This document shows, in pieces, positions 1 to 7,817 of a stretch of 7,817 nt of DNA (position 1 is its first letter; each line of letters starts with the position of its first letter). Origin of the DNA: a virus (Duplodnaviria > Heunggongvirae > Uroviricota > Caudoviricetes). The stretch is from IMG/VR virus record IMGVR_UViG_2541047945_000007, one strand, 5' to 3'. The position numbers and the translations under genes were made by a program. A model generated the notes under the pieces. The model had not been told where the DNA came from. It ran no database searches and saw nothing but the letters and a program-made list of their open reading frames with translations.

Positions 1-180
1 GCCCCCGGTATCCCGCTCATGCTGGCGAACCCAGACACGCAGAGTCTCCGGCGTACAGCCAATCTTTGGAGCAATGGAACAAATTGTCGCCCATTGTGAG
101 TCATATTCGCCCTGACTTTCCAGAACCATACGGACTGCCCGTTGACGGACTTCAGGGGAAAAACGAGTATTTTTAGTCAT
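1..180 (-). CDS. IS3-family transposase OrfA, N-terminal 60 codons (gene start at 180, runs off the window)
   Basis: Open minus-strand frame from ATG 180..178 to the window edge; SD-like GAGG upstream on the minus strand (GAGGTAAACAGG then ATG); HTH-like N-terminal sequence typical of IS3 OrfA. Confidence 0.8.
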
Positions 181-234
181 CCTGTTTACCTCTTTCTCAG
201 GAAGTTTAGTCTCCAGGATTCCCGGGGCGGTTCA
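1..234 (-). mobile_element. Left end of an IS3-family insertion sequence (IS629/IS1203-like), partial; the element continues beyond the window start
   Basis: Minus-strand translation from the ATG at 180..178 gives [60 protein letters not shown], which I recognise from memory as IS3-family OrfA (IS629-type). The minus-strand sequence ending at 234 begins TGAACCGCCCCGGG, consistent with an IS3-family terminal inverted repeat (TG...CA ends). Only one end is visible, so no target-site duplication can be assessed. Confidence 0.75.
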
Positions 235-379
235 GTATGAAGATATTCAGCAGCCTGCGCAACAACAGACACAACAAGCAACATCTGGCGGTCAAACATT
301 TCGAGAAGGTATGACCGCGAAAAATCCTAAAACTGGTCAGAAAATTATTTACAGGAACGGACAATGGCAACCAATGTAG
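235..379 (+). pseudogene. 3' remnant (47 codons) of a virion gene truncated by the IS insertion; by synteny a P22 gene 20-like ejection protein
   Basis: Frame 2 is open from the first base after the IS end (236) to TAG at 377..379, giving YEDIQQPAQQQTQQATSGGQTFREGMTAKNPKTGQKIIYRNGQWQPM*. It has no start codon of its own and its stop overlaps the next gene start by 16 nt, as in tightly packed late operons. Identity of the gene is inference from position only. Confidence 0.45.
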
Positions 380-2487
380 GTTTACCAGAGGGATTTGTTC
401 TGGATGAACAGCCTGATAACTCACAGCTTCCTGATGGCTTTGTGCTTGATGCCCAACCAGAACAGCAGCAATCTCCTTTGGTTTCACCAGAGGAAAATTC
501 CAGACAGGAAAATGTTGTTAATAATGCTAACGGTTTCGACCGTTTTATGTATGGCGTTCTCAGTGGATTGATGGATGTTGGTAAAGGTGTTGGTCTATTT
601 CAGGATATGACACCAGAAGAGCAAGCCGCAATTCAGTCTCTACAGCAGAAGTTAGCGGCAAAACCATCAACCGTACAAGATGTTGGTGAGTTCGTTGGAC
701 AAGCAGCACCATTTGTTAGTGGTGGTGGGATTATTTCTCAGGTTCCGAAAGGGGCGGCAAGGCTGGCTGCCGCCGCAGGGCTTGGTGCTGGAGAAGGGGC
801 TATTGTAGCCAATGGAACAAATAGCGATGTTGCTTCTGGAGCTGCTATTGGCGCTGTGGCTGGCCCTGTAGCAGAGATTGTTGGTCCAGCTCTTGGGAAG
901 ATTGCAGGAAAAATTAAAAATAGTGCCGGAGATATTTATCGCTCATCCGTAGGGATGGGTAGTAAATCATCTAAAGCAACGTTAAAGAAAGCTGCTGGCG
1001 CAATGGACAATAAATTTATCGGCGGGCAACGAGCTATTCAAGATTTCGCCGATGAAGTTAATCCTGATTTTAACGCGATAAATGCTATTCGTGAGCTAGA
1101 ACTGGAAAATTATGCCACTCCAGGCATGATCTCTAATAATCCTGCTGTCAGGGCTCTTGATAATGCAGTGGCAAGTCTCCCTGGAACAGAGATTAGTGAG
1201 GCGCATAAGCGTTTTATTACTGAATTAGGAAGAAAAGCTGATGAAATGATAACTTCATTTGGGGGAAGCCTTGATAAGCAACTGGTTTCTGACAGGCTTG
1301 CAGATAATTTTGATAAAACCATTTCATCATTACAAAATCAGTCAGATAACATCTACAACAAAATTGCCGAAAAGGTTCCTGTAAGAGACCGGATTGAGGC
1401 AACTAATACATTGAATTTTTTAGAGGATTTTGCTGATGATATAGGTGGAATTGATGAATTATCTCCAATAATGAAGCGGACATTGAACCGACTTGATCCA
1501 AACACCTTGCCAACGTATGGGCGTTTAGATCTCGCTAGAAAGCAGGTTGGGCAAGCTATTGGCAAAGGCTCTGGCCCATTCAAGGATGAAGAAACAGGTG
1601 TTCTTAAAAAGTTATATGCGGCTATAACAGATGACCAACAGGCTGTCGCAGAAAAATATGGCGCAGGGGAGTTATGGACGCTTGGTAAGGAGTTGGTAAA
1701 AACACGAAAATCCATTGAAGATGATGCCGTAACCGTTTTGGGTAGAAAACTTCAGCAATCAGCAATTCCAAAAGTTGAAAGTGCCGTTGTTAATATGGCA
1801 AAAGGAAACGGTGGTGACTTTAGGCAATTAATGAAGTCAATTCCAAAGGATATGCGGCAGGAAGTTGCGCTCACCTCAATGAATAAAGCATTTACCAGCT
1901 ATGCTAAATCACCAGGTCAGCAATTAGGGGTTGATGGATTTGTAAAATGGTATAACGGAATGTCACGCAATGGGGCCAATATGAAGGCTCTCCGTGATGC
2001 TATTGGCACAGATGCATCAAAGCGCCTTGATACGATTTATCAAGCAGCTAAGGCTATGAATAGACTCAATACTGGTAAGCAGTATGCTAGTAGTCTTGTG
2101 GATCAGCAAGTTAATAACTTTCTGAAAGAAAAGGGTAGTCTCGCAAAAATTTATGGAATAGCCTCAAAAGCTGCTGCGGCGGAAGGTATTACAAGCTTAT
2201 CTGGTCTTCCTGGTGTAGGTGCAACAGGGGTGATAACGTCAGCATTGATGTCAGGGAAAACAAGCAGGATAAAGGCTGCTGATGCTCTACTGTCTTCTCC
2301 TGAGTTTAAATCAATGCTATTTCGCCTGCAAAACGCACCTGTAGACAGAGCAGAAGTGAGACGCGTAATAGAAAGGAAACTGATGCAATCTGGGGCATTT
2401 AAGAGATGGGAGAAAACCTTATCAACAGATGAAGCAAAAACCATTGCCCGCACGGGGATTATTACATGGCTCGCTAGTGACAGTTAG
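364..2487 (+). CDS. Internal virion / DNA ejection protein (707 aa); P22 gene 16-like by position
   Basis: 2124-nt ORF; SD AGGAA at 353..357, 6 nt before ATG 364. N-terminal acidic tandem peptide repeat (LPEGFVLDEQP / LPDGFVLDAQP), a long Gly/Ala-rich hydrophobic segment (about aa 107-184), then a long predicted alpha-helical region. It lies immediately upstream of the immI region, as gene 16 does in P22. Functional assignment is from synteny and composition, not recognised sequence identity. Confidence 0.8.
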   Translation: MATNVGLPEGFVLDEQPDNSQLPDGFVLDAQPEQQQSPLVSPEENSRQENVVNNANGFDRFMYGVLSGLMDVGKGVGLFQDMTPEEQAAIQSLQQKLAAKPSTVQDVGEFVGQAAPFVSGGGIISQVPKGAARLAAAAGLGAGEGAIVANGTNSDVASGAAIGAVAGPVAEIVGPALGKIAGKIKNSAGDIYRSSVGMGSKSSKATLKKAAGAMDNKFIGGQRAIQDFADEVNPDFNAINAIRELELENYATPGMISNNPAVRALDNAVASLPGTEISEAHKRFITELGRKADEMITSFGGSLDKQLVSDRLADNFDKTISSLQNQSDNIYNKIAEKVPVRDRIEATNTLNFLEDFADDIGGIDELSPIMKRTLNRLDPNTLPTYGRLDLARKQVGQAIGKGSGPFKDEETGVLKKLYAAITDDQQAVAEKYGAGELWTLGKELVKTRKSIEDDAVTVLGRKLQQSAIPKVESAVVNMAKGNGGDFRQLMKSIPKDMRQEVALTSMNKAFTSYAKSPGQQLGVDGFVKWYNGMSRNGANMKALRDAIGTDASKRLDTIYQAAKAMNRLNTGKQYASSLVDQQVNNFLKEKGSLAKIYGIASKAAAAEGITSLSGLPGVGATGVITSALMSGKTSRIKAADALLSSPEFKSMLFRLQNAPVDRAEVRRVIERKLMQSGAFKRWEKTLSTDEAKTIARTGIITWLASDS

Positions 2488-2774
2488 TCAACTTTGGTTA
2501 TTTTGCCTTCTTTTTCTTGATGAACTTTGCATCCATCATCTTTTGATAGCCAAACTAAAAACTTTAAAACCTTAAACACAAGTACGGCTACTGCAATGAA
2601 AGCACCAATTGCAATTATTGCAAGCGAAATTATTTGCATTGGTGCTTTTAATGCAGGGAAAATAGTGTAAATGATCGCGAAAACAGTAATTATGAGGAAC
2701 CATCGCTTCACACCAACCTCCTTAGTTTTGTGCAGGATACCAGATGGTTTGGAGTGAGATAAAGGTTTGTCCAC
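2484..2774 (-). CDS. Small hypothetical membrane protein (96 aa from a GTG start; possible shorter form from an internal ATG)
   Basis: Minus-strand ORF with two strongly hydrophobic stretches (WFLIITVFAIIYTIFPAL and IISLAIIAIGAFIAVAVLVFKVL). Co-oriented with, and 64 bp downstream of, the PIN gene. GTG start with no clear SD and a T-rich coding strand mean the ORF could partly be a composition artefact. Its stop overlaps the convergent 707-aa gene stop. Confidence 0.4.
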   Translation of the reverse strand: MDKPLSHSKPSGILHKTKEVGVKRWFLIITVFAIIYTIFPALKAPMQIISLAIIAIGAFIAVAVLVFKVLKFLVWLSKDDGCKVHQEKEGKITKVD

Positions 2775-2838: not shown

Positions 2839-3387
2839 TTAGTGTAATCTCTGATCGTCTGAATCGTGTAAGAACTCCATGAGACTTTGAACCGGAATTG
2901 GTTCTATTGATGATAATGTGAACACAGGAATATTGAGACTTTTGCAACGCTCAAACACTCCCTTATCATGAGTCCATACCTCGTCAGCATTAATTGCTCT
3001 TGCAATTGCTATTATTTGTCTGTCAAACTTAATTTTGTTTGCTGTACCTTCTGTGCTAATTTTCCTTAATTCTTTTAATGTTGGTATCGATGCGCATTCA
3101 ATAGCAGCCAACTCATCAAATGATACAGTTTCGAAGCACGATAACGATTTGATAACATTCAGTTTTTCTTGTTGGTAATCTTTATGGATTCCAACTAAAA
3201 ACTCCGCCAATACAGGAGTTGGAACGATGATTGTCCCGTTCTTGTTATCTATTCGATCAACAAGAGCTTCTGCTCTTCTTTTGGCATCTGGAATCTCAGA
3301 ACCAAGTATAGGGTCAGATAATCTATAATCGTGTTCTATATCTGATAGTAGGTATACCAGAATATTGGTATCTAAAATTACTCGCAA
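2839..3387 (-). CDS. PIN-domain nuclease, VapC-like (182 aa)
   Basis: N-terminus MRVILDTNILVY is the canonical PIN start. The four conserved acidic positions are present in the expected motifs: D6 (ILDTN), E62 (PVLAEF), D122 (KFDRQIIAIA) and D141 (WTHDKGVFER, matching the VapC T-x-x-D...FER C-terminal motif). Start is TTG at 3387..3385 preceded by a good SD (GAGGAA, 7-nt spacer); there is no in-frame ATG. The start overlaps the upstream gene's stop by 10 nt, indicating translational coupling. Confidence 0.8.
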   Translation of the reverse strand: MRVILDTNILVYLLSDIEHDYRLSDPILGSEIPDAKRRAEALVDRIDNKNGTIIVPTPVLAEFLVGIHKDYQQEKLNVIKSLSCFETVSFDELAAIECASIPTLKELRKISTEGTANKIKFDRQIIAIARAINADEVWTHDKGVFERCKSLNIPVFTLSSIEPIPVQSLMEFLHDSDDQRLH

Positions 3388-4097
3388 TTTATCTTCCTCA
3401 GAGTCCTAAGGATTGAATCAACATCGCGTTCCTCGGACCACTGATCTCCAGGAACTTGCTTGATAGCATTAATAGCATCCTTGAGTGATGATTTTTTGAG
3501 CAATACAAATGAAGTTATTTTTAGTTTCTTTAGCTCCCATTTGTTGTTCTTTTTTTCCCAGCACCCATCTCCTTTAACCCTAATATATTTGAATAGATGG
3601 GACCCAAGAGCTGCCGCCAAATCAGGGGTTGCCTCGCACTTGAATGTTTCACCGTTGGCTCCCTCAATACGCACAGGTATTGAGTTGTCTTTTCCGCCAA
3701 CACTGTATAGCCTTCCTTGAACTTCTGACGTTTTTGTTATGAGTAAAGGGATTGGCTCCTTTTTTACTCGCGGGAATGCGATAATGGTTGAGTGGTTTCG
3801 TCCGAGTAGTTTCGCTGAAAAACCATCATGCTCCAGTAAATTAACAATTTTTTGATACGCGGGTGATTTCTCTTTGGCTGAGAGAGAGGCCCTTGCTATG
3901 ACAGCGTTATAACAAATATCATTATCGACCCATGCATTTAAGTCAGCCGATCCTTCACTTACACAGTCGAAGTGAACAGAATCTGCAGAACCGTATAGAT
4001 CTACGAGAGCAGACATATACTTGACCAACTTAGCCATTGACAGCTGGCCAGGGGTGGTTCCGTCAAGTTTTAATGTGAGTCCATTGCTTTTTTTCAT
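3378..4097 (-). CDS. Hypothetical protein (239 aa), upstream partner of the PIN nuclease; no recognisable domain
   Basis: 720-nt minus-strand ORF starting 49 bp downstream of the mnt stop; AT-rich like the PIN gene; ends ...LRKINCE* with its TAA inside the PIN start region. No Walker, HTH or other motif I can identify. The SD is weak (GTGATGACAA then ATG). Confidence 0.7.
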   Translation of the reverse strand: MKKSNGLTLKLDGTTPGQLSMAKLVKYMSALVDLYGSADSVHFDCVSEGSADLNAWVDNDICYNAVIARASLSAKEKSPAYQKIVNLLEHDGFSAKLLGRNHSTIIAFPRVKKEPIPLLITKTSEVQGRLYSVGGKDNSIPVRIEGANGETFKCEATPDLAAALGSHLFKYIRVKGDGCWEKKNNKWELKKLKITSFVLLKKSSLKDAINAIKQVPGDQWSEERDVDSILRTLRKINCE

Positions 4098-4146: not shown

Positions 4147-4401
4147 CTATAACTTACTTTTGCTATAAATATTTTTCAGCGTTTCAAAGACCATCTTCTT
4201 AACAACGTCAGATTGCTCATCCGCGACTCGCTCAGCTTCGTCTCGATAGCCTACAATTGATGATGGCTTTGAGAGAGCATCCTGAACGATTTGTAATAAC
4301 TCAGAGTTCATTGACCTTCCGTTAGCCTCTGCTCTTAATTTCAATTTTTCTCTTACTTCCAAAGGCATACGGAAGTTAAAGTGCGGATCGTCTCTAGCCA
4401 T
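4147..4401 (-). CDS. mnt: Mnt repressor (ribbon-helix-helix), maintenance-of-lysogeny repressor of the immI region
   Basis: Translation MARDDPHFNFRMPLEVREKLKLRAEANGRSMNSELLQIVQDALSKPS... is nearly identical to P22 Mnt as I recall it. Divergent from arc, with the P22-type operators between them. Confidence 0.93.
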   Translation of the reverse strand: MARDDPHFNFRMPLEVREKLKLRAEANGRSMNSELLQIVQDALSKPSSIVGYRDEAERVADEQSDVVKKMVFETLKNIYSKSKL

Positions 4402-4423
4402 GCCATCACCCCAAGTTAGTGTA

Positions 4424-4452
4424 TTGACATGATAGAAGCACTCTACTATATT
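4424..4452 (+). promoter_or_regulatory. Pant-like sigma70 promoter (-35 TTGACA 4424..4429, 17-bp spacer, -10 TATATT 4447..4452)
   Basis: Consensus -35, 17-nt spacer and near-consensus -10 read directly from the sequence; location and arrangement match P22 Pant. Confidence 0.7.
4429..4449. promoter_or_regulatory. Arc operator (Oarc): ATGATAGAAGCACTCTACTAT
   Basis: The 21-bp sequence matches the P22 arc operator as I remember it from the Arc-operator structural literature, with TAGA/TCTA half-sites; it lies in the Pant spacer and overlaps the Pmnt -10. Confidence 0.7.
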
Positions 4453-4457
4453 CTCAA
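4429..4457 (-). promoter_or_regulatory. Pmnt-like divergent promoter (minus strand: -35 TTGAGA at 4457..4452, 17-bp spacer, -10 TATCAT at 4434..4429)
   Basis: Read on the reverse complement. Overlaps Pant back-to-back, as described for P22 immI. Confidence 0.55.
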
Positions 4458-4477
4458 TAGGTCCACCGTGGACCTAT
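4457..4477. promoter_or_regulatory. Mnt operator (Omnt): perfect 21-bp palindrome ATAGGTCCACCGTGGACCTAT centred on 4467
   Basis: Perfect dyad symmetry verified base by base; it lies just downstream of the Pant -10 (covering the expected transcription start), where Mnt represses ant in P22. Confidence 0.75.
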
Positions 4478-4491
4478 ATTGTGAGGTAAAT

Positions 4492-4650
4492 ATGAAAGGA
4501 ATGAGCAAAATGCCGCAGTTCAATTTGCGGTGGCCTAAAGAAGTATTGGATTTGGTGCGCAAGGTAGCTGAAGAGAACGGGCGATCTGTTAACTCTGAGA
4601 TTTATAAGCGAGTGATGGACAGCCTGAAGAGAGAGGGGATAACGGTATGA
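4492..4650 (+). CDS. arc: Arc repressor (ribbon-helix-helix), 52 aa
   Basis: [52 protein letters not shown] is near-identical to P22 Arc as I recall it. SD GAGG 7 nt upstream of ATG 4492. The longer ORF-track start at 4429 is rejected because it would cover the promoter and operators. Confidence 0.93.
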   Translation: MKGMSKMPQFNLRWPKEVLDLVRKVAEENGRSVNSEIYKRVMDSLKREGITV

Positions 4651-4868
4651 AGTTTATTGAGGTTGATGAGATTGGCTATGAGAATGCACTTGGTAGAGGT
4701 AAATCTTTAGTTAACGTTAATGGCATTGAGTCGATAAGGAGCGGTGAATTTACGGAGATCAGAATGATGTCAGGTGGAATCATTCCTTGCCGTGATTCAG
4801 TAGAGTCAATCAAAGCAAGAATGAGTGGTCAGTGGCTTTATAACTACAGTGACTTACAAAAACAGTGA
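4647..4868 (+). CDS. Hypothetical protein (73 aa) inserted between arc and ant
   Basis: ATG overlaps the arc stop (ATGA at 4647..4650); strong SD GAGAGGGG at 4628..4635. Nothing of this size lies between arc and ant in P22 as I recall it. No recognisable motif. Confidence 0.55.
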
Positions 4869-4930
4869 AGCCCCAACTGCGGGAACAGTCAGGGCTTCGG
4901 TTGTCAGTAAATCCGTGGAGAAAAACCAAC
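4857..4930 (-). ncRNA. Possible sar-like small antisense RNA covering the ant ribosome-binding site
   Basis: Minus-strand candidate promoter inside the ant start (-10 TATACT at 4942..4937, weak -35 TGTTCA 16 bp upstream) would start transcription near 4930, antisense to the ant SD (4917..4920). A minus-strand intrinsic-terminator-like hairpin (outer stem 4867..4873 with 4892..4898, inner stem 4876..4879 with 4886..4889) is followed on the minus strand by ACTGTTTTTG. The implied length of about 70 nt is comparable to P22 sar. This is inference only. Confidence 0.3.
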
Positions 4931-5833
4931 ATGAATAGTATAGCAATTTTAGAAGCAGTGAACACCTCTTACGTGCCTTTCAATGGTCAGCAAATTATCA
5001 CCGCCATGGCTGCCGGAGTTGCATATGTTGCGATGAAGCCAATCGTTGAAAACCTTGGAATGAGCTGGTCAACGCAGCAAACAAAACTCATGAAGCAGAT
5101 TAGCAAATTCAACTGTGTTCATATGAACATGGTTGCCGCTGATGGTAAGCTTCGTAAGCTACTCTGCCTTCCTTTGAAGAAGTTAAATGGATGGCTGTTC
5201 AGCATCAACCCTGAGAAAGTTCGTGCTGACATCCGCGATAAACTGATTCAGTACCAGGAAGAATGCTTTACTGTGCTGCATGACTACTGGACGAAGGGAA
5301 AGGCAGAAAATGCACGTAAGAAAACATCTGTTGATGACAGGACTCCGCTTCGTGATGCTGTAAATATGCTAGTCAGCAAAAAGCATCTAATGTACCCAGA
5401 AGCTTATGCAATGATTCATCAGCGTTTCAATGTGGAAAGTATTGAAGAGCTTGATGCATCTCAGATACCGCAAGCTGTAGAGTACATCCACAGGGTAGTG
5501 CTTGAAGGTGAGTTCATCGGCAAACAAGAGAAGAAAACCAACGAGCTTTCTGCAAAAGAAGCAAACAGCCTTGTATGGTTATGGGATTATGCCAACCGCT
5601 CACAGGCATTATTCCGCGAACTGTATCCGGCGCTAAAACAAATTCAATCGAACTATTCCGGCAGATGTCATGACTGCGGTTATGAGTTCTCCCGTATTAT
5701 CGATATGGCGAGAGATGTTTTAATCAACCATACACGAGATGTTGATATTAATGAGCCAGACGGACCAACGAATCTTTCCGCATGGATGAGACTTAAGAAT
5801 AAAGAATTACCTCCTTCAGTACATAACTACTGA
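4931..5833 (+). CDS. ant: Antirepressor Ant (300 aa from ATG 4931; the ORF track's GTG at 4865 is a less likely start)
   Basis: N-terminus [24 protein letters not shown]... matches the P22 antirepressor as I recall it; GGAG at 4917..4920 precedes ATG 4931; the position downstream of arc matches P22. The extension from 4865 would span the hairpin and overlap the upstream ORF. Confidence 0.88.
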
Positions 5834-5851
5834 CAGATAACCAACGCAACG

Positions 5852-5876
5852 ACCCAGCTTAGGCTGGGTTTTTTTA
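5852..5876 (+). terminator. Rho-independent terminator after ant
   Basis: Stem ACCCAGC (5852..5858) pairs with GCTGGGT (5863..5869), 4-nt loop TTAG, followed by a run of six T (5870..5875); it starts 19 nt after the ant stop. Confidence 0.8.
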
Positions 5877-6011: not shown

Positions 6012-7817
6012 ATGACAGACATTATACCTAACATTATAGTTTCCATGCCTAATCAATTGTTCACAATGTCAAGAACATTTAAATCAGTATCGAATGGAAG
6101 CATTTATATCGGGAAGCCTGATACCGATCCGACTAATCCAGATAATCAAGTGGATGTTTATTTTGAGAATGAGAATGGAAAATATATTAAGGTTTCTCAA
6201 CCAATAAAAATAAGTCAAGCTGGACAACCTGTATTGAATGGTCAATTCGGTAAGTTTGCGACTATAAAAAATCACTCAATGGCGATTTTTGATGCGTATG
6301 GCTCTCAGCAGCACTATTTCCCAAATGTAATGAAATATGCTCCAGATCAGTTAAGGCAGGAATTAACAAATTTTTCTGGTGAAAATTCTCCTGGTTATGC
6401 TGACCCAAGTAATACGGTATGGGGAATTGATGCATTTTCTTCTAATGAATATGCGAAAAATAATGCTTTTTTCGGAGTTGGAGCAGGATCATCAATTATA
6501 GGTAACGAGTCAGATGAGGCTGTTGGTGCGGAAAATACTGGTATTGGTAGACGAGCCGGTGCAAGCCTTACAACAGGACAGCGCAATGTTCTACTTGGAC
6601 ATGAGGCTGGAGCACTGTTAACTACAGGTAGTTGTAATATTTTTATTTACGCTCAAAGTTCTTCTTATGCCAACTATAAAACCGGTAGTTATAATGTAGT
6701 GGTTGGTTATAACGCTGGCAAACTATTAACATCAGGAGAGAGAAATGTTTCAGTTGGTACGGATGCTGGGTCACGAACAACAACAGGAAGAGATAACGTT
6801 GCTGTCGGTCAAGCAGCAATGCAAAATAACTCAACTGGTGGTGGTAATACCTATATAGGAGCATTCTCTGGTGCTGAGACGGGAACTGGCGGTAATAATC
6901 TTGCTGCAGGTCGCTCTGCCTTATTTAGAAATGTGGATGGTTCTGGAAACGTTGCACTAGGACGTGAGGCTTCTCTTGGTTTGTCTTCATATGGGGAATC
7001 TCCCAATAATATTGTTGCTATAGGGTATCAAGCTGCATGGTCACAGAATGGATTAAATGGTGTTGTTTTTTGTGGGATGCAAGCAGGATATAAAGCAACA
7101 AAAATGAATGATTCAGTTCTTATTGGTAGGGCTTCCGGCTTTAATTTAACAACAGGAAGTGATAATGTTTTTGTTGGTGCAGCGTCAGGAGATAGTGAGA
7201 CTACTGGAACCCAATTAGTATATCTTGGACATCAAGCTGGTAGGTTTTTGATTGATGGGACACCTGCAAAAGAGAAATTAAATTGTGTAGCTTTAGGCTG
7301 CCGTGCCAGAGTTGGTGGAGATCATGAGATTCAGTTAGGAAATTCTTCTCAGACAGTTTATGTATATGGTACGGTGCAAACTCGGTCTGATGAGCGTGAT
7401 AAAGCAGATAAACGAATAATAGACGGAGAACTTGCTGTATCATTCGTCCGTGGAATAATCCCATATTTTTATAAGTGGGATTTTCGTGATGATTATATAG
7501 AAGAATACAATGTAAAAATTGGTGATGATTCTAATGGCAATCCGATTTTTGAAACTAGAATTCATCAACATGAAAAAGATGGCAGTAGAAAAAGGAAAAG
7601 AGAACATGCCGGGTATCTTGCACAGCAAGTTAAAGAATTACTTGATCGACTTGGAATTGACTGTGGTATATATCAAGATCATCTAGTAAACAATGGATGC
7701 GATGTAAAAACAATTGCCTACGAACAGGTTATACCGTTTGTTACAAAGGCTATAGATGTTGCATTTTCAAGGATAGAGGGGTTAGAGCAAAGATTGAACA
7801 AACTCGAAAACCTATAA
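6012..7817 (+). CDS. Tailspike / tail fibre protein (601 aa): P22-type N-terminal head-binding domain, Gly-rich repeat shaft, C-terminal intramolecular chaperone domain
   Basis: The first ~115 aa (MTDIIPNIIVSMPNQLFTMSRTFKSVSNGSIYIGKPDTDPTNPDNQ...HSMAIFDAYGSQQHYFPNVMKYAPDQ) align closely with the P22 gp9 head-binding domain as I recall it. GGAG at 6000..6003 precedes ATG 6012. The C-terminus contains SDERDK (S459 to K464) followed by about 140 aa including HAGYLAQQVKELL, typical of the S74-type self-cleaving chaperone of phage fibres. Complete ORF with TAA at 7815..7817. Confidence 0.93.
   Translation: MTDIIPNIIVSMPNQLFTMSRTFKSVSNGSIYIGKPDTDPTNPDNQVDVYFENENGKYIKVSQPIKISQAGQPVLNGQFGKFATIKNHSMAIFDAYGSQQHYFPNVMKYAPDQLRQELTNFSGENSPGYADPSNTVWGIDAFSSNEYAKNNAFFGVGAGSSIIGNESDEAVGAENTGIGRRAGASLTTGQRNVLLGHEAGALLTTGSCNIFIYAQSSSYANYKTGSYNVVVGYNAGKLLTSGERNVSVGTDAGSRTTTGRDNVAVGQAAMQNNSTGGGNTYIGAFSGAETGTGGNNLAAGRSALFRNVDGSGNVALGREASLGLSSYGESPNNIVAIGYQAAWSQNGLNGVVFCGMQAGYKATKMNDSVLIGRASGFNLTTGSDNVFVGAASGDSETTGTQLVYLGHQAGRFLIDGTPAKEKLNCVALGCRARVGGDHEIQLGNSSQTVYVYGTVQTRSDERDKADKRIIDGELAVSFVRGIIPYFYKWDFRDDYIEEYNVKIGDDSNGNPIFETRIHQHEKDGSRKRKREHAGYLAQQVKELLDRLGIDCGIYQDHLVNNGCDVKTIAYEQVIPFVTKAIDVAFSRIEGLEQRLNKLENL
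6459..7346 (+). repeat. Degenerate periodic coding repeat in the tailspike (about 14 units of 17-18 aa, consensus roughly G-x-x-AG-x-x-L-TTG-x-x-NV-x-x-G)
   Basis: Units read from the translation include RRAGASLTTGQRNVLLG, HEAGALLTTGSCNIFIY, YNAGKLLTSGERNVSVG, TDAGSRTTTGRDNVAVG, RASGFNLTTGSDNVFVG and AASGDSETTGTQLVYLG. The periodicity is at the protein level; the DNA units are diverged and not identical tandem repeats. Confidence 0.6.

What the first reader, a model, noticed from the sequence alone, without database searches (positions are those of the whole stretch)
4402..4491. Conserved P22-type immI control region: overlapping divergent promoters with arc and mnt operators
Within 90 bp, Pant (consensus TTGACA, 17-bp spacer, TATATT) and Pmnt (TTGAGA, 17-bp spacer, TATCAT) sit back-to-back. 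The arc operator sequence is in the Pant spacer, and a perfect 21-bp palindrome (the mnt operator) covers the Pant start site. This is the textbook P22 immI arrangement and anchors the identification of the whole region; it also shows the antirepressor circuit is probably intact.
Basis: partly seen in the sequence, partly recalled or inferred. Interest (0 to 1): 0.4.

Follow-up and report, generated by a model that had tools for sequence, protein, structure and literature searches.

The report
P22-type immI promoter-operator control region
This 90-bp stretch is the well-known phage P22 "immI" switch, two overlapping opposite-facing promoters with the Arc and Mnt repressor binding sites, and here it sits essentially unchanged in a fragment of a P22-like prophage of E. 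coli, so it is ordinary and already understood.

Summary
Window 4402-4491 is exactly the mnt-arc intergenic region. It holds Pant (TTGACA/17/TATATT, 4424-4452, +), Pmnt (TTGAGA/17/TATCAT, 4457-4429, -), the 21-bp arc operator (4429-4449) and a perfect 10+1+10 palindrome (4457-4477). Bases 4411-4466 are identical to phage P22, where these elements were defined. Only four bases of the 90 differ from P22: 4410 (mnt Shine-Dalgarno), 4467 (operator centre, C not G), 4476 (makes the palindrome perfect over 21 bp rather than 17) and 4488 (arc Shine-Dalgarno). Across 51 distinct related sequences the promoters and Oarc are almost invariant. The Omnt centre is freely G, C or T. Mnt and Arc keep P22's DNA-reading N-termini, and sar RNA and ant are intact. 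Three caveats apply. A 73-codon ORF absent from P22 sits between arc and sar. Arc has a different C-terminus. Phage DNA starts only at base 235, next to an IS3-family element, and the identical copy in E. coli LC-1302-2020 is a ~7.4-kb IS-flanked prophage remnant with no immC within 20 kb. So the local circuit is intact, but the phage it served is not shown to be present. This is a known element of low interest.

The parts
1..234 (-). End of an IS3-family insertion sequence (OrfA N-terminus at 180-1 plus the IS terminus). It truncates the prophage; phage homology begins at 235.
   Evidence: 100% identical to L004 16335-16568, which overlaps the annotated IS3-family transposase. The translation matches NCBIfam transpos_IS3 only weakly, 16.9 bits against a cut-off of 160. 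All phage hits start at 235.
4147..4401 (-). mnt gene: 84-aa Mnt repressor, an Arc-like ribbon-helix-helix domain plus the Mnt C-terminal tetramerisation domain.
   Evidence: Pfam Arc 93.7 bits and Repressor_Mnt 49 bits. 82% identical to P22 Mnt, with residues 1-13 identical.
4409..4412 (-). mnt Shine-Dalgarno, GGGG here and GGAG in P22 (difference at 4410).
   Evidence: Mapped from the RBS annotated in X01916 at 287-290 through alignment A1. Position 4410 is polymorphic among relatives.
4424..4452 (+). Pant promoter: -35 TTGACA 4424-4429, 17-bp spacer, -10 TATATT 4447-4452. The inferred start is about 4459-4460.
   Evidence: 11/12. Identical to the P22 arc/ant promoter annotated in BK000583 and X01916. 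2 of 29 columns vary among 51 distinct relatives.
4429..4457 (-). Pmnt promoter: -35 TTGAGA 4457-4452, 17-bp spacer, -10 TATCAT 4434-4429.
   Evidence: 10/12. Identical to the annotated P22 mnt promoter. 1 of 29 columns varies.
4429..4449 (.). Arc operator (Oarc), ATGATAGAAGCACTCTACTAT.
   Evidence: Identical to the BK000583 protein_bind feature 'arc operator'. A unique exact match, 0.00 expected by chance. 1 of 21 columns varies among relatives.
4457..4477 (.). Mnt operator (Omnt): perfect 10+1+10 palindrome ATAGGTCCAC-C-GTGGACCTAT, with the 17-bp core at 4459-4475.
   Evidence: It aligns with the P22 mnt operator apart from 4467 (C for G) and 4476 (A for G). The centre is G, C or T among relatives.
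4483..4488 (+). arc Shine-Dalgarno, GAGGTA here and GAGGTG in P22.
   Evidence: Mapped from the X01916 RBS at 361-366.
4492..4650 (+). arc gene: 52-aa Arc repressor with the ...REGITV C-terminal allele.
   Evidence: Pfam Arc 95.4 bits. 90% identical to P22 Arc over residues 1-49, with residues 1-15 identical. C-terminal alleles are tabulated.
4647..4868 (+). ORF73: a 73-codon ORF of unknown function inserted between arc and sar. Its ATG overlaps the arc stop codon (ATGA) and its stop codon lies inside the sar terminator.
   Evidence: Absent from P22 and epsilon34. PHROG 11805, unknown function. Eight protein clusters found, one at 60% BLASTP identity. Present in phages 611R6 and Emek.
4864..4930 (-). 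sar antisense RNA, complementary to the ant ribosome-binding site. Its terminator hairpin is at 4867-4898.
   Evidence: Rfam RF00262, 87.7 bits against a gathering score of 43, E 4.7e-18. Terminator-like site. Two-hairpin fold with z = -5.0.
4937..4965 (-). Psar promoter, placed by position-for-position homology with P22.
   Evidence: The BK000583 sar promoter at L001 3054-3082 mapped through alignment A2. The consensus scan did not detect it.
4931..5833 (+). ant gene: 300-aa antirepressor.
   Evidence: Pfam P22_AR_N 153.6 bits and P22_AR_C 98.5 bits. 85% identical to P22 Ant over all 300 residues.
5851..5870 (+). Intrinsic terminator after ant.
   Evidence: It lies in the same position as the ant terminator annotated in P22 and epsilon34.

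Best explanation
Window 4402-4491 is the cis-acting control region of a P22-type immunity I (immI) module in a P22-like (Lederbergvirus) prophage fragment of Escherichia coli.

Two almost superimposed, divergent sigma-70 promoters compete for RNA polymerase. Pant fires rightward into arc, ORF73 and ant. Pmnt fires leftward into mnt. An Arc tetramer (two dimers) binds the 21-bp Oarc between and into the Pant hexamers and represses both promoters. An Mnt tetramer binds the palindromic Omnt over the Pant start site. That shuts off Pant in a lysogen and, by removing the stronger competitor, lets Pmnt fire. The sar antisense RNA (4864-4930, minus strand) pairs with the ant ribosome-binding site and adds post-transcriptional repression.

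What is shown here: the sequence elements, their identity to P22, their conservation, intact cognate repressor genes with unchanged DNA-reading residues, and sar. What is inferred from P22 work: the actual binding, the promoter competition and the start sites.

Two features are not in the textbook version. An extra small gene (ORF73) is translationally coupled to arc. The surrounding phage is truncated by an IS, so Ant's natural target (the C2 repressor of the same phage) is probably not encoded alongside.
For: 1. Both promoters lie at the stated positions with 17-bp spacers, and the palindrome is perfect.
2. Bases 4411-4466 are identical to P22 in BK000583 and X01916. Those records annotate the arc/ant promoter, the mnt promoter, the arc operator and the mnt operator at the aligned positions.
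3. Among 51 distinct mnt-arc sequences from 73 IMG/VR loci plus P22, variable columns are 2/29 in Pant, 1/29 in Pmnt and 1/21 in Oarc, against 40% of the mnt CDS and 25% of the arc CDS.
4. Mnt residues 1-13 and Arc residues 1-15 are identical to P22.
5. All 73 P22-type control regions pair with the Mnt N-terminus MARDDPHFNFRMP. Emek has a different palindrome at the same place and the N-terminus VARNDPQFNVRMP, and 611R6 differs in both operator and N-terminus.
6. sar matches Rfam RF00262 at 87.7 bits and folds into two hairpins. Ant is full length and 85% identical to P22 Ant.
7. Literature: Arc bound at its operator represses the two divergent, overlapping promoters Pant and Pmnt (PMC2724298, citing Smith & Sauer 1996). 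mnt, arc and sar control ant within immunity I (PMC2629481, PMC11016777).
Against: No experiment was done on this sequence, so binding, transcription start sites and promoter competition are carried over from P22. The consensus promoter matches are not statistically unusual on their own. Psar was not picked up by the consensus scan. ORF73 lengthens the arc-ant transcript by about 215 nt and changes the Arc C-terminus, with unknown effect on Arc stability or ant expression. The phage is cut by an IS at 234/235, and the identical E. coli copy has no immC within 20 kb, so the circuit may have nothing of its own to regulate.
Confidence: 0.93

Rival explanations
1. The region is a correctly identified immI control region but is a functionless relic. 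It lies in a decaying, IS-bounded prophage fragment and no longer regulates anything that matters to phage or host.
For: Window 1-234 is an IS3-family end and phage homology starts at 235. In E. coli LC-1302-2020 the 100%-identical block (a truncated gene-16-like ejection gene through the tailspike) lies between IS3-family and IS2 elements in the appA-torT interval, with no other phage genes within 20 kb.
Against: mnt, arc, ORF73, ant and sar are all full length with no frameshifts. The control region is identical or nearly identical to that of complete prophage contigs and of viable phages. Identity of 100% among strains suggests the truncation is recent, so decay may simply not have started. 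P22 Ant is reported to inhibit superinfecting phage (PMC11016777), so an orphan module could still act in trans.
Confidence: 0.3
2. The mnt operator here has altered specificity or affinity. The C centre and the 21-bp perfect symmetry would make this a functionally distinct immI type.
For: Positions 4467 and 4476 differ from P22. Heteroimmune immI types with different operators do exist, in Emek, 611R6 and the seven outlier loci.
Against: The centre is G, C or T among loci that share the same Mnt N-terminus. In an odd-length palindrome a G-to-C change at the centre only inverts the site. The A at 4476 is the majority state among relatives and reproduces P22's left half-site. The 17-bp core is otherwise identical, and Mnt residues 1-13 are identical to P22.
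Confidence: 0.04
3. The promoter-like hexamers and the palindrome are chance features of an AT-rich intergenic region.
For: Promoter-like matches of >=10/12 occur at the chance rate in this window, and overlapping divergent pairs occur in 7% of simulations.
Against: Identity over 56 consecutive bases with the experimentally defined P22 region. Near-invariance across 51 distinct relatives while the flanking coding DNA varies. Exact unique matches to both operators with 0.00-0.01 expected.
Confidence: 0.01

Closest known systems
Salmonella phage P22 immI control region (Pant / Pmnt / Oarc / Omnt; GenBank X01916, BK000583; Sauer et al. 1983)
   Same: Same gene order: mnt leftward, then arc, sar and ant. 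Same 90-bp intergenic length. Bases 4411-4466, holding both promoters, Oarc and the left half of Omnt, are identical. The 17-bp Omnt core is identical apart from its centre. The DNA-reading N-termini of Mnt and Arc are identical. sar and the ant terminator are in the same places.
   Different: Four substitutions in the 90 bp (4410, 4467, 4476, 4488). The palindrome is perfect over 21 bp here and 17 bp in P22. Arc ends ...REGITV rather than ...KEGRIGA. A 73-codon ORF lies between arc and sar. The flanking cargo differs: a 239-aa ORF plus a PIN-domain ORF in place of sieA and orf59a. The host is E. coli, and the element is truncated by an IS.
Salmonella phage epsilon34 immI region within the 'ant moron' (EU570103; PMC2629481)
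   Same: Same architecture, with identical promoters and Oarc. Its sar and ant 5' region are closer to the window than P22's are: 92.9% overall across the mnt-to-tailspike-start hit.
   Different: epsilon34 has G at the Omnt centre and two different outer-arm bases, no ORF73, and the P22-type Arc C-terminus.
immI regions of Salmonella phage vB_SemP_Emek and Escherichia phage vB_EcoP-611R6
   Same: The same arc-ORF73-ant arrangement, with the arc stop codon overlapping the ORF73 start; ORF73 DNA is 95.7-97.4% identical. The same ...REGITV Arc C-terminus. The same divergent repressor layout. Both are viable isolated phages.
   Different: Their intergenic control regions carry different operator sequences, and their Mnt-like proteins have different N-termini, so the immI specificity is different.

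Membership tests
P22-type immI control region | An intergenic region of about 90 bp between a leftward mnt gene and a rightward arc-ant operon | tested here: met
   mnt 4147-4401(-), arc 4492-4650(+), ant 4931-5833(+). Pfam Arc, Repressor_Mnt and P22_AR_N/C all match. Identity to the P22 proteins is 82-90%.
P22-type immI control region | Overlapping divergent promoters Pant and Pmnt with P22's hexamers and 17-bp spacers | tested here: met
   One search finds both. They are identical to the promoter features annotated in X01916 and BK000583.
P22-type immI control region | The 21-bp arc operator lying between and into the Pant hexamers | tested here: met
   An exact 21/21 match at 4429-4449 to the BK000583 'arc operator'.
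P22-type immI control region | A symmetric mnt operator over the Pant start region | tested here: met
   The core AGGTCCACNGTGGACCT is at 4459-4475 and the perfect 21-bp palindrome at 4457-4477. Only the centre (C for G) and position 4476 differ from P22, and both vary among relatives. The Pant start at about 4459-4460 is inferred from the -10 position and was not mapped.
P22-type immI control region | Cognate repressors with the P22 DNA-recognition N-terminal residues | tested here: met
   Mnt 1-13 and Arc 1-15 are identical to P22. The Mnt N-terminus co-varies with operator type across modules.
P22-type immI control region | A sar antisense RNA opposite the ant ribosome-binding site | tested here: met
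   Rfam RF00262, 87.7 bits against a gathering score of 43. Two-hairpin fold with z = -5.0.
P22-type immI control region | Arc and Mnt actually bind these sites and regulate Pant and Pmnt | not testable with these tools
   This needs gel shift, footprinting, reporter or transcript mapping. It is inferred from identity to P22.
Complete P22-like temperate phage with a working immI-immC circuit | immI lies in a complete phage genome that also encodes the C2 repressor (immC) on which Ant acts | tested here: not met
   Phage DNA begins at base 235, next to an IS3-family end. The 100%-identical E. coli copy is an IS-flanked block of about 7.4 kb with no further phage genes within 20 kb. The window's own source genome was not identified, so another prophage elsewhere in that genome cannot be excluded.

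The most novel reading that the evidence does not exclude
ORF73 (4647-4868) is a real, previously uncharacterised fourth protein of the immI operon. It is translationally coupled to arc and is transcribed from Pant under Arc and Mnt control. In this reading it modulates the antirepressor circuit, for example Ant activity or stability or Arc turnover, or it acts with Ant against competing phages. Relatedly, the IS-bounded orphan immI module may be kept by E. coli because its Ant acts in trans on other prophages. The evidence shows only that the ORF is conserved, is in the operon and occurs in viable phages with at least three different immI specificities. Nothing found here indicates its function.
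Probability: 0.12. Interest if true: 0.45.

Novelty: already known. Interest (0 to 1): 0.1.

Why it matters
It matters little as a discovery. This is one of the best-studied promoter-operator regions in phage biology, and a copy at least 90% identical is present in 173 of 5,426 complete E. coli genomes.

It is useful as an anchor. It fixes the identity, strand and boundaries of mnt, arc, sar and ant, and it marks the window as the 'ant moron' of a P22-like prophage.

The comparative data give two modest points. First, natural variation agrees with the biochemical picture: the promoters and Oarc are frozen, while the Omnt centre and outer edges are free. Second, the 3' end of arc is a recombination junction behind which different cargo, here ORF73, is inserted into the Pant operon.

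Tried and rejected
1. Structure prediction of ORF73 from an 8-sequence alignment gave mean pLDDT 54 and pTM 0.34. That is too poor for a fold search, so none was run.
2. ORF73, the 239-aa ORF, the PIN-domain ORF and the 96-aa ORF have no PADLOC match. They have no informative NCBIfam match and only 'unknown function' PHROGs.
3. The primary Mnt and Arc operator papers (Man & Stormo 2001, Knight & Sauer 1989, Berggrun & Sauer 2001) are not held. Statements about His6 of Mnt, Mnt tetramer binding and Mnt activating Pmnt through promoter competition therefore rest on my own knowledge and on the GenBank feature tables.
5. The ORF at 4429-4650 listed by the ORF finder is just arc extended upstream to an in-frame ATG inside Pant. 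I rejected it as a gene because P22 arc starts at the position equivalent to 4492, behind the annotated RBS.
6. A third promoter-like site (4451-4480, 9/12) was considered and set aside as a chance-level match.
7. The window's exact source genome was not found. The best complete E. coli genome covers 94% at 100% identity but lacks 235-667.

Full report
OBSERVATION. Coordinates 4402-4491 are exactly the gap between the start codon of a leftward gene (4147-4401) and the ATG of a rightward gene at 4492.
- The consensus scan finds Pant on the plus strand: TTGACA 4424-4429, 17-bp spacer, TATATT 4447-4452, 11 of 12 matches.
- It finds Pmnt on the minus strand: TTGAGA 4457-4452, 17-bp spacer, TATCAT 4434-4429, 10 of 12.
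- The two 29-bp promoters are offset by only 5 bp. They are nearly superimposed rather than merely back-to-back.
- The inverted-repeat search gives arms 4457-4466 and 4468-4477, 100% complementary around a single central base at 4467.
- The 21-bp arc operator sequence sits at 4429-4449.

IS IT MORE THAN CHANCE? The hexamer matches alone are not. In 300 first-order Markov simulations of the window, matches of >=10/12 average 4.1 (5 observed) and >=11/12 average 0.22 (1 observed). An overlapping divergent pair appears in 7% of simulations. The perfect 10+N+10 palindrome is rarer, 0.05 expected, and it is the only one in the window. The Omnt core and Oarc each match once, against 0.01 and 0.00 expected.

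The real proof is comparative. Aligned with P22 (BK000583 and the original immI record X01916), bases 4411-4466 are identical. Only four of the 90 positions differ: 4410, 4467, 4476 and 4488. Both GenBank records annotate the arc/ant promoter, the mnt promoter, the arc operator and the mnt operator at the aligned positions.

WHAT SURROUNDS IT.
- The leftward gene encodes an 84-aa protein with Pfam Arc and Repressor_Mnt domains. It is 82% identical to P22 Mnt, with residues 1-13 identical.
- The rightward gene encodes a 52-aa Arc, 90% identical to P22 Arc over residues 1-49 and with residues 1-15 identical.
- Rfam finds sar RNA at 4864-4930 on the minus strand, 87.7 bits against a gathering score of 43. 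It folds into the expected two hairpins, z = -5.0.
- ant (4931-5833) is full length and 85% identical to P22 Ant.
- It is followed by an intrinsic terminator at 5851-5870 and by a tailspike gene with the P22 head-binding domain.
- Upstream lie a gene-16-like ejection protein gene (364-2487) and three leftward cargo ORFs.
This is the variable 'ant moron' of P22-like phages described by Casjens and colleagues (PMC2629481).

CONSERVATION TEST. I fetched 80 viral contigs through the Mnt protein, so the sample was not chosen on operator sequence. Seventy-three carry the P22-type control region. Among 51 distinct mnt-to-arc sequences, the share of variable columns is:
- mnt CDS 40%
- arc CDS 25%
- Pant 2 of 29
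- Pmnt 1 of 29
- Oarc 1 of 21, each change seen in only one or two sequences
- Omnt 9 of 21
The Omnt changes concentrate at the centre and at the two outer arm positions 4475-4476. The centre is G in most loci, C in about a dozen and T in one. L009 is identical to the window over the whole 90 bp.

The C at 4467 is therefore ordinary polymorphism, and in an odd-length palindrome it only turns the site around. The A at 4476 is the majority state. It is P22 that is unusual in having G there. Positions 4410 and 4488 fall in the mnt and arc Shine-Dalgarno sequences (GGGG against GGAG, GAGGTA against GAGGTG). Both are polymorphic among relatives.

SPECIFICITY CO-VARIATION. All 73 P22-type control regions go with the Mnt N-terminus MARDDPHFNFRMP. 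Phage Emek has the same layout but a different palindrome (TAGTAGTACGGTACTA) at the Omnt position, and its Mnt-like protein begins VARNDPQFNVRMP. Phage 611R6 differs again in both. From my own knowledge, His6 of Mnt is the classic specificity residue, and it is one of the residues changed in Emek. Seven loci keep a P22-type mnt but have a second Mnt-like gene, a different divergent control region and a different Arc-like protein upstream. In them the homology to the window breaks at about 4420, just left of the Pant -35. immI therefore comes in several specificities, and the window carries the P22 one.

MECHANISM (transferred from P22). Arc bound at Oarc represses both divergent overlapping promoters (PMC2724298, citing Smith & Sauer). 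Mnt, arc and sar together control ant (PMC2629481, PMC11016777, PMC12111858). From my own knowledge of the Sauer and Susskind work, Mnt binds as a tetramer over the Pant start region. This represses Pant in the lysogen and indirectly activates Pmnt by removing promoter competition. The -10 position places the Pant start at about 4459-4460, at the left edge of Omnt. That start is inferred, not mapped.

DEPARTURES FROM THE TEXTBOOK.
1. About 215 bp absent from P22 and epsilon34 lie between arc codon 49 and the sar terminator.
   - They hold a 73-codon ORF (4647-4868). Its ATG overlaps the arc stop codon, and its own stop codon lies in the sar terminator.
   - It belongs to PHROG 11805, of unknown function. 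It has no Pfam, PADLOC or NCBIfam match.
   - Only eight protein clusters were found. The two with a source name are from E. coli and Salmonella, and one cluster is only 60% identical (BLASTP) yet keeps the frame open.
   - It occurs in two isolated phages, Emek and 611R6.
   - The AlphaFold model was too poor to use, pLDDT 54.
2. Arc has two C-terminal alleles. The ...EGRIGA allele is followed directly by sar wherever sar lay within the fetched flank, though in 16 such loci sar was not found. The ...EGITV allele, as here, is followed by a 216-264 bp insert or by different downstream DNA. The 3' end of arc is therefore a recombination junction.
3. Window 1-234 is the end of an IS3-family element, and all phage homology begins at 235.
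4. In E. coli LC-1302-2020 the 100%-identical block is about 7.4 kb, flanked by IS3-family and IS2 elements between appA and torT. No other phage gene lies within 20 kb.
So 'circuit probably intact' is true of the local parts, but not of the phage-level circuit in which Ant targets that phage's own C2 repressor.

HOW COMMON. The 90-bp region occurs at >=90% identity in 173 of 5,426 complete E. coli genomes and in P22-like Salmonella phages generally.

VERDICT. The element is already known and interest is low. The only loose ends are the uncharacterised ORF73 inside the Pant operon and the orphan status of the module in an IS-bounded remnant.

Noticed in passing
window 4647-4868 (+): A 73-codon ORF lies between arc and sar and is absent from P22 and epsilon34. 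Its ATG overlaps the arc stop codon (ATGA). It belongs to PHROG 11805 (unknown function) and only eight protein clusters were found. It is present in the viable phages Emek and vB_EcoP-611R6, which have different immI operator types.
   Followed up: partly
window 4620-4650 (arc 3' end): Arc ends ...[14 protein letters not shown] rather than P22's ...QRVMESFKKEGRIGA. In none of the related loci examined is this allele followed directly by sar: a 216-264 bp insert or different downstream DNA follows it. It resembles the C-terminus of unrelated Arc-like proteins in other immI types (L010, 611R6). This marks a mosaic recombination junction inside arc.
   Followed up: partly
window 1-234 (-): This is the end of an IS3-family insertion sequence; the OrfA N-terminus is [16 protein letters not shown].... 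Phage homology begins at 235, so the prophage is truncated here. E. coli LC-1302-2020 has the same IS junction plus a further 433-bp deletion, of window 235-667.
   Followed up: yes
window 2839-4097 (-): Two overlapping leftward cargo ORFs occupy the position where P22 has sieA and orf59a. One is 239 aa with no family match (PHROG 19868). The other is 182 aa with a PIN domain and weak VapC-like matches. This could be a toxin-antitoxin or defence pair. There was no PADLOC hit.
   Followed up: partly
window 2484-2774 (-): A 96-aa ORF that looks hydrophobic and membrane-like by eye (PHROG 7294, unknown function). Its 3' end (stop codon at 2484-2486) overlaps the stop codon of the ejection-protein gene by 4 bp. 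RefSeq annotates a shorter 75-aa version.
   Followed up: no
L010 974-1477 (also L021, L022, L029, L031, L043, L049): These loci carry an alternative immI architecture. A P22-type mnt, in L010 100% identical to the window's, is preceded by a second Mnt-like gene (87 aa), a different divergent control region, a different small Arc-like repressor and a Cys-rich 67-aa ORF. Homology to the window breaks just left of the Pant -35, at about window 4420.
   Followed up: partly
L086 2260-2352 (phage Emek) and L085 2250-2322 (phage 611R6): These are heteroimmune immI control regions with the same layout but different operators. Emek has the palindrome TAGTAGTACGGTACTA, and its Mnt N-terminus is changed at residues 4, 6 and 10. 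Emek's Arc is nearly identical to the window's from residue 7 onward, although the DNA at the Oarc position differs.
   Followed up: partly
window 4451-4480 (+): The A at 4476 (G in P22) creates a second TATATT hexamer at 4475-4480. With TTCTCA at 4451-4456 and an 18-bp spacer this gives a weak promoter-like match of 9/12 inside Omnt. It is probably chance.
   Followed up: no
window 6012-7817 (+): The tailspike has the P22 head-binding N-terminal domain, but its C-terminal part carries a Peptidase_S74 (endosialidase chaperone) domain rather than the P22 endorhamnosidase. The window ends exactly at its stop codon.
   Followed up: no
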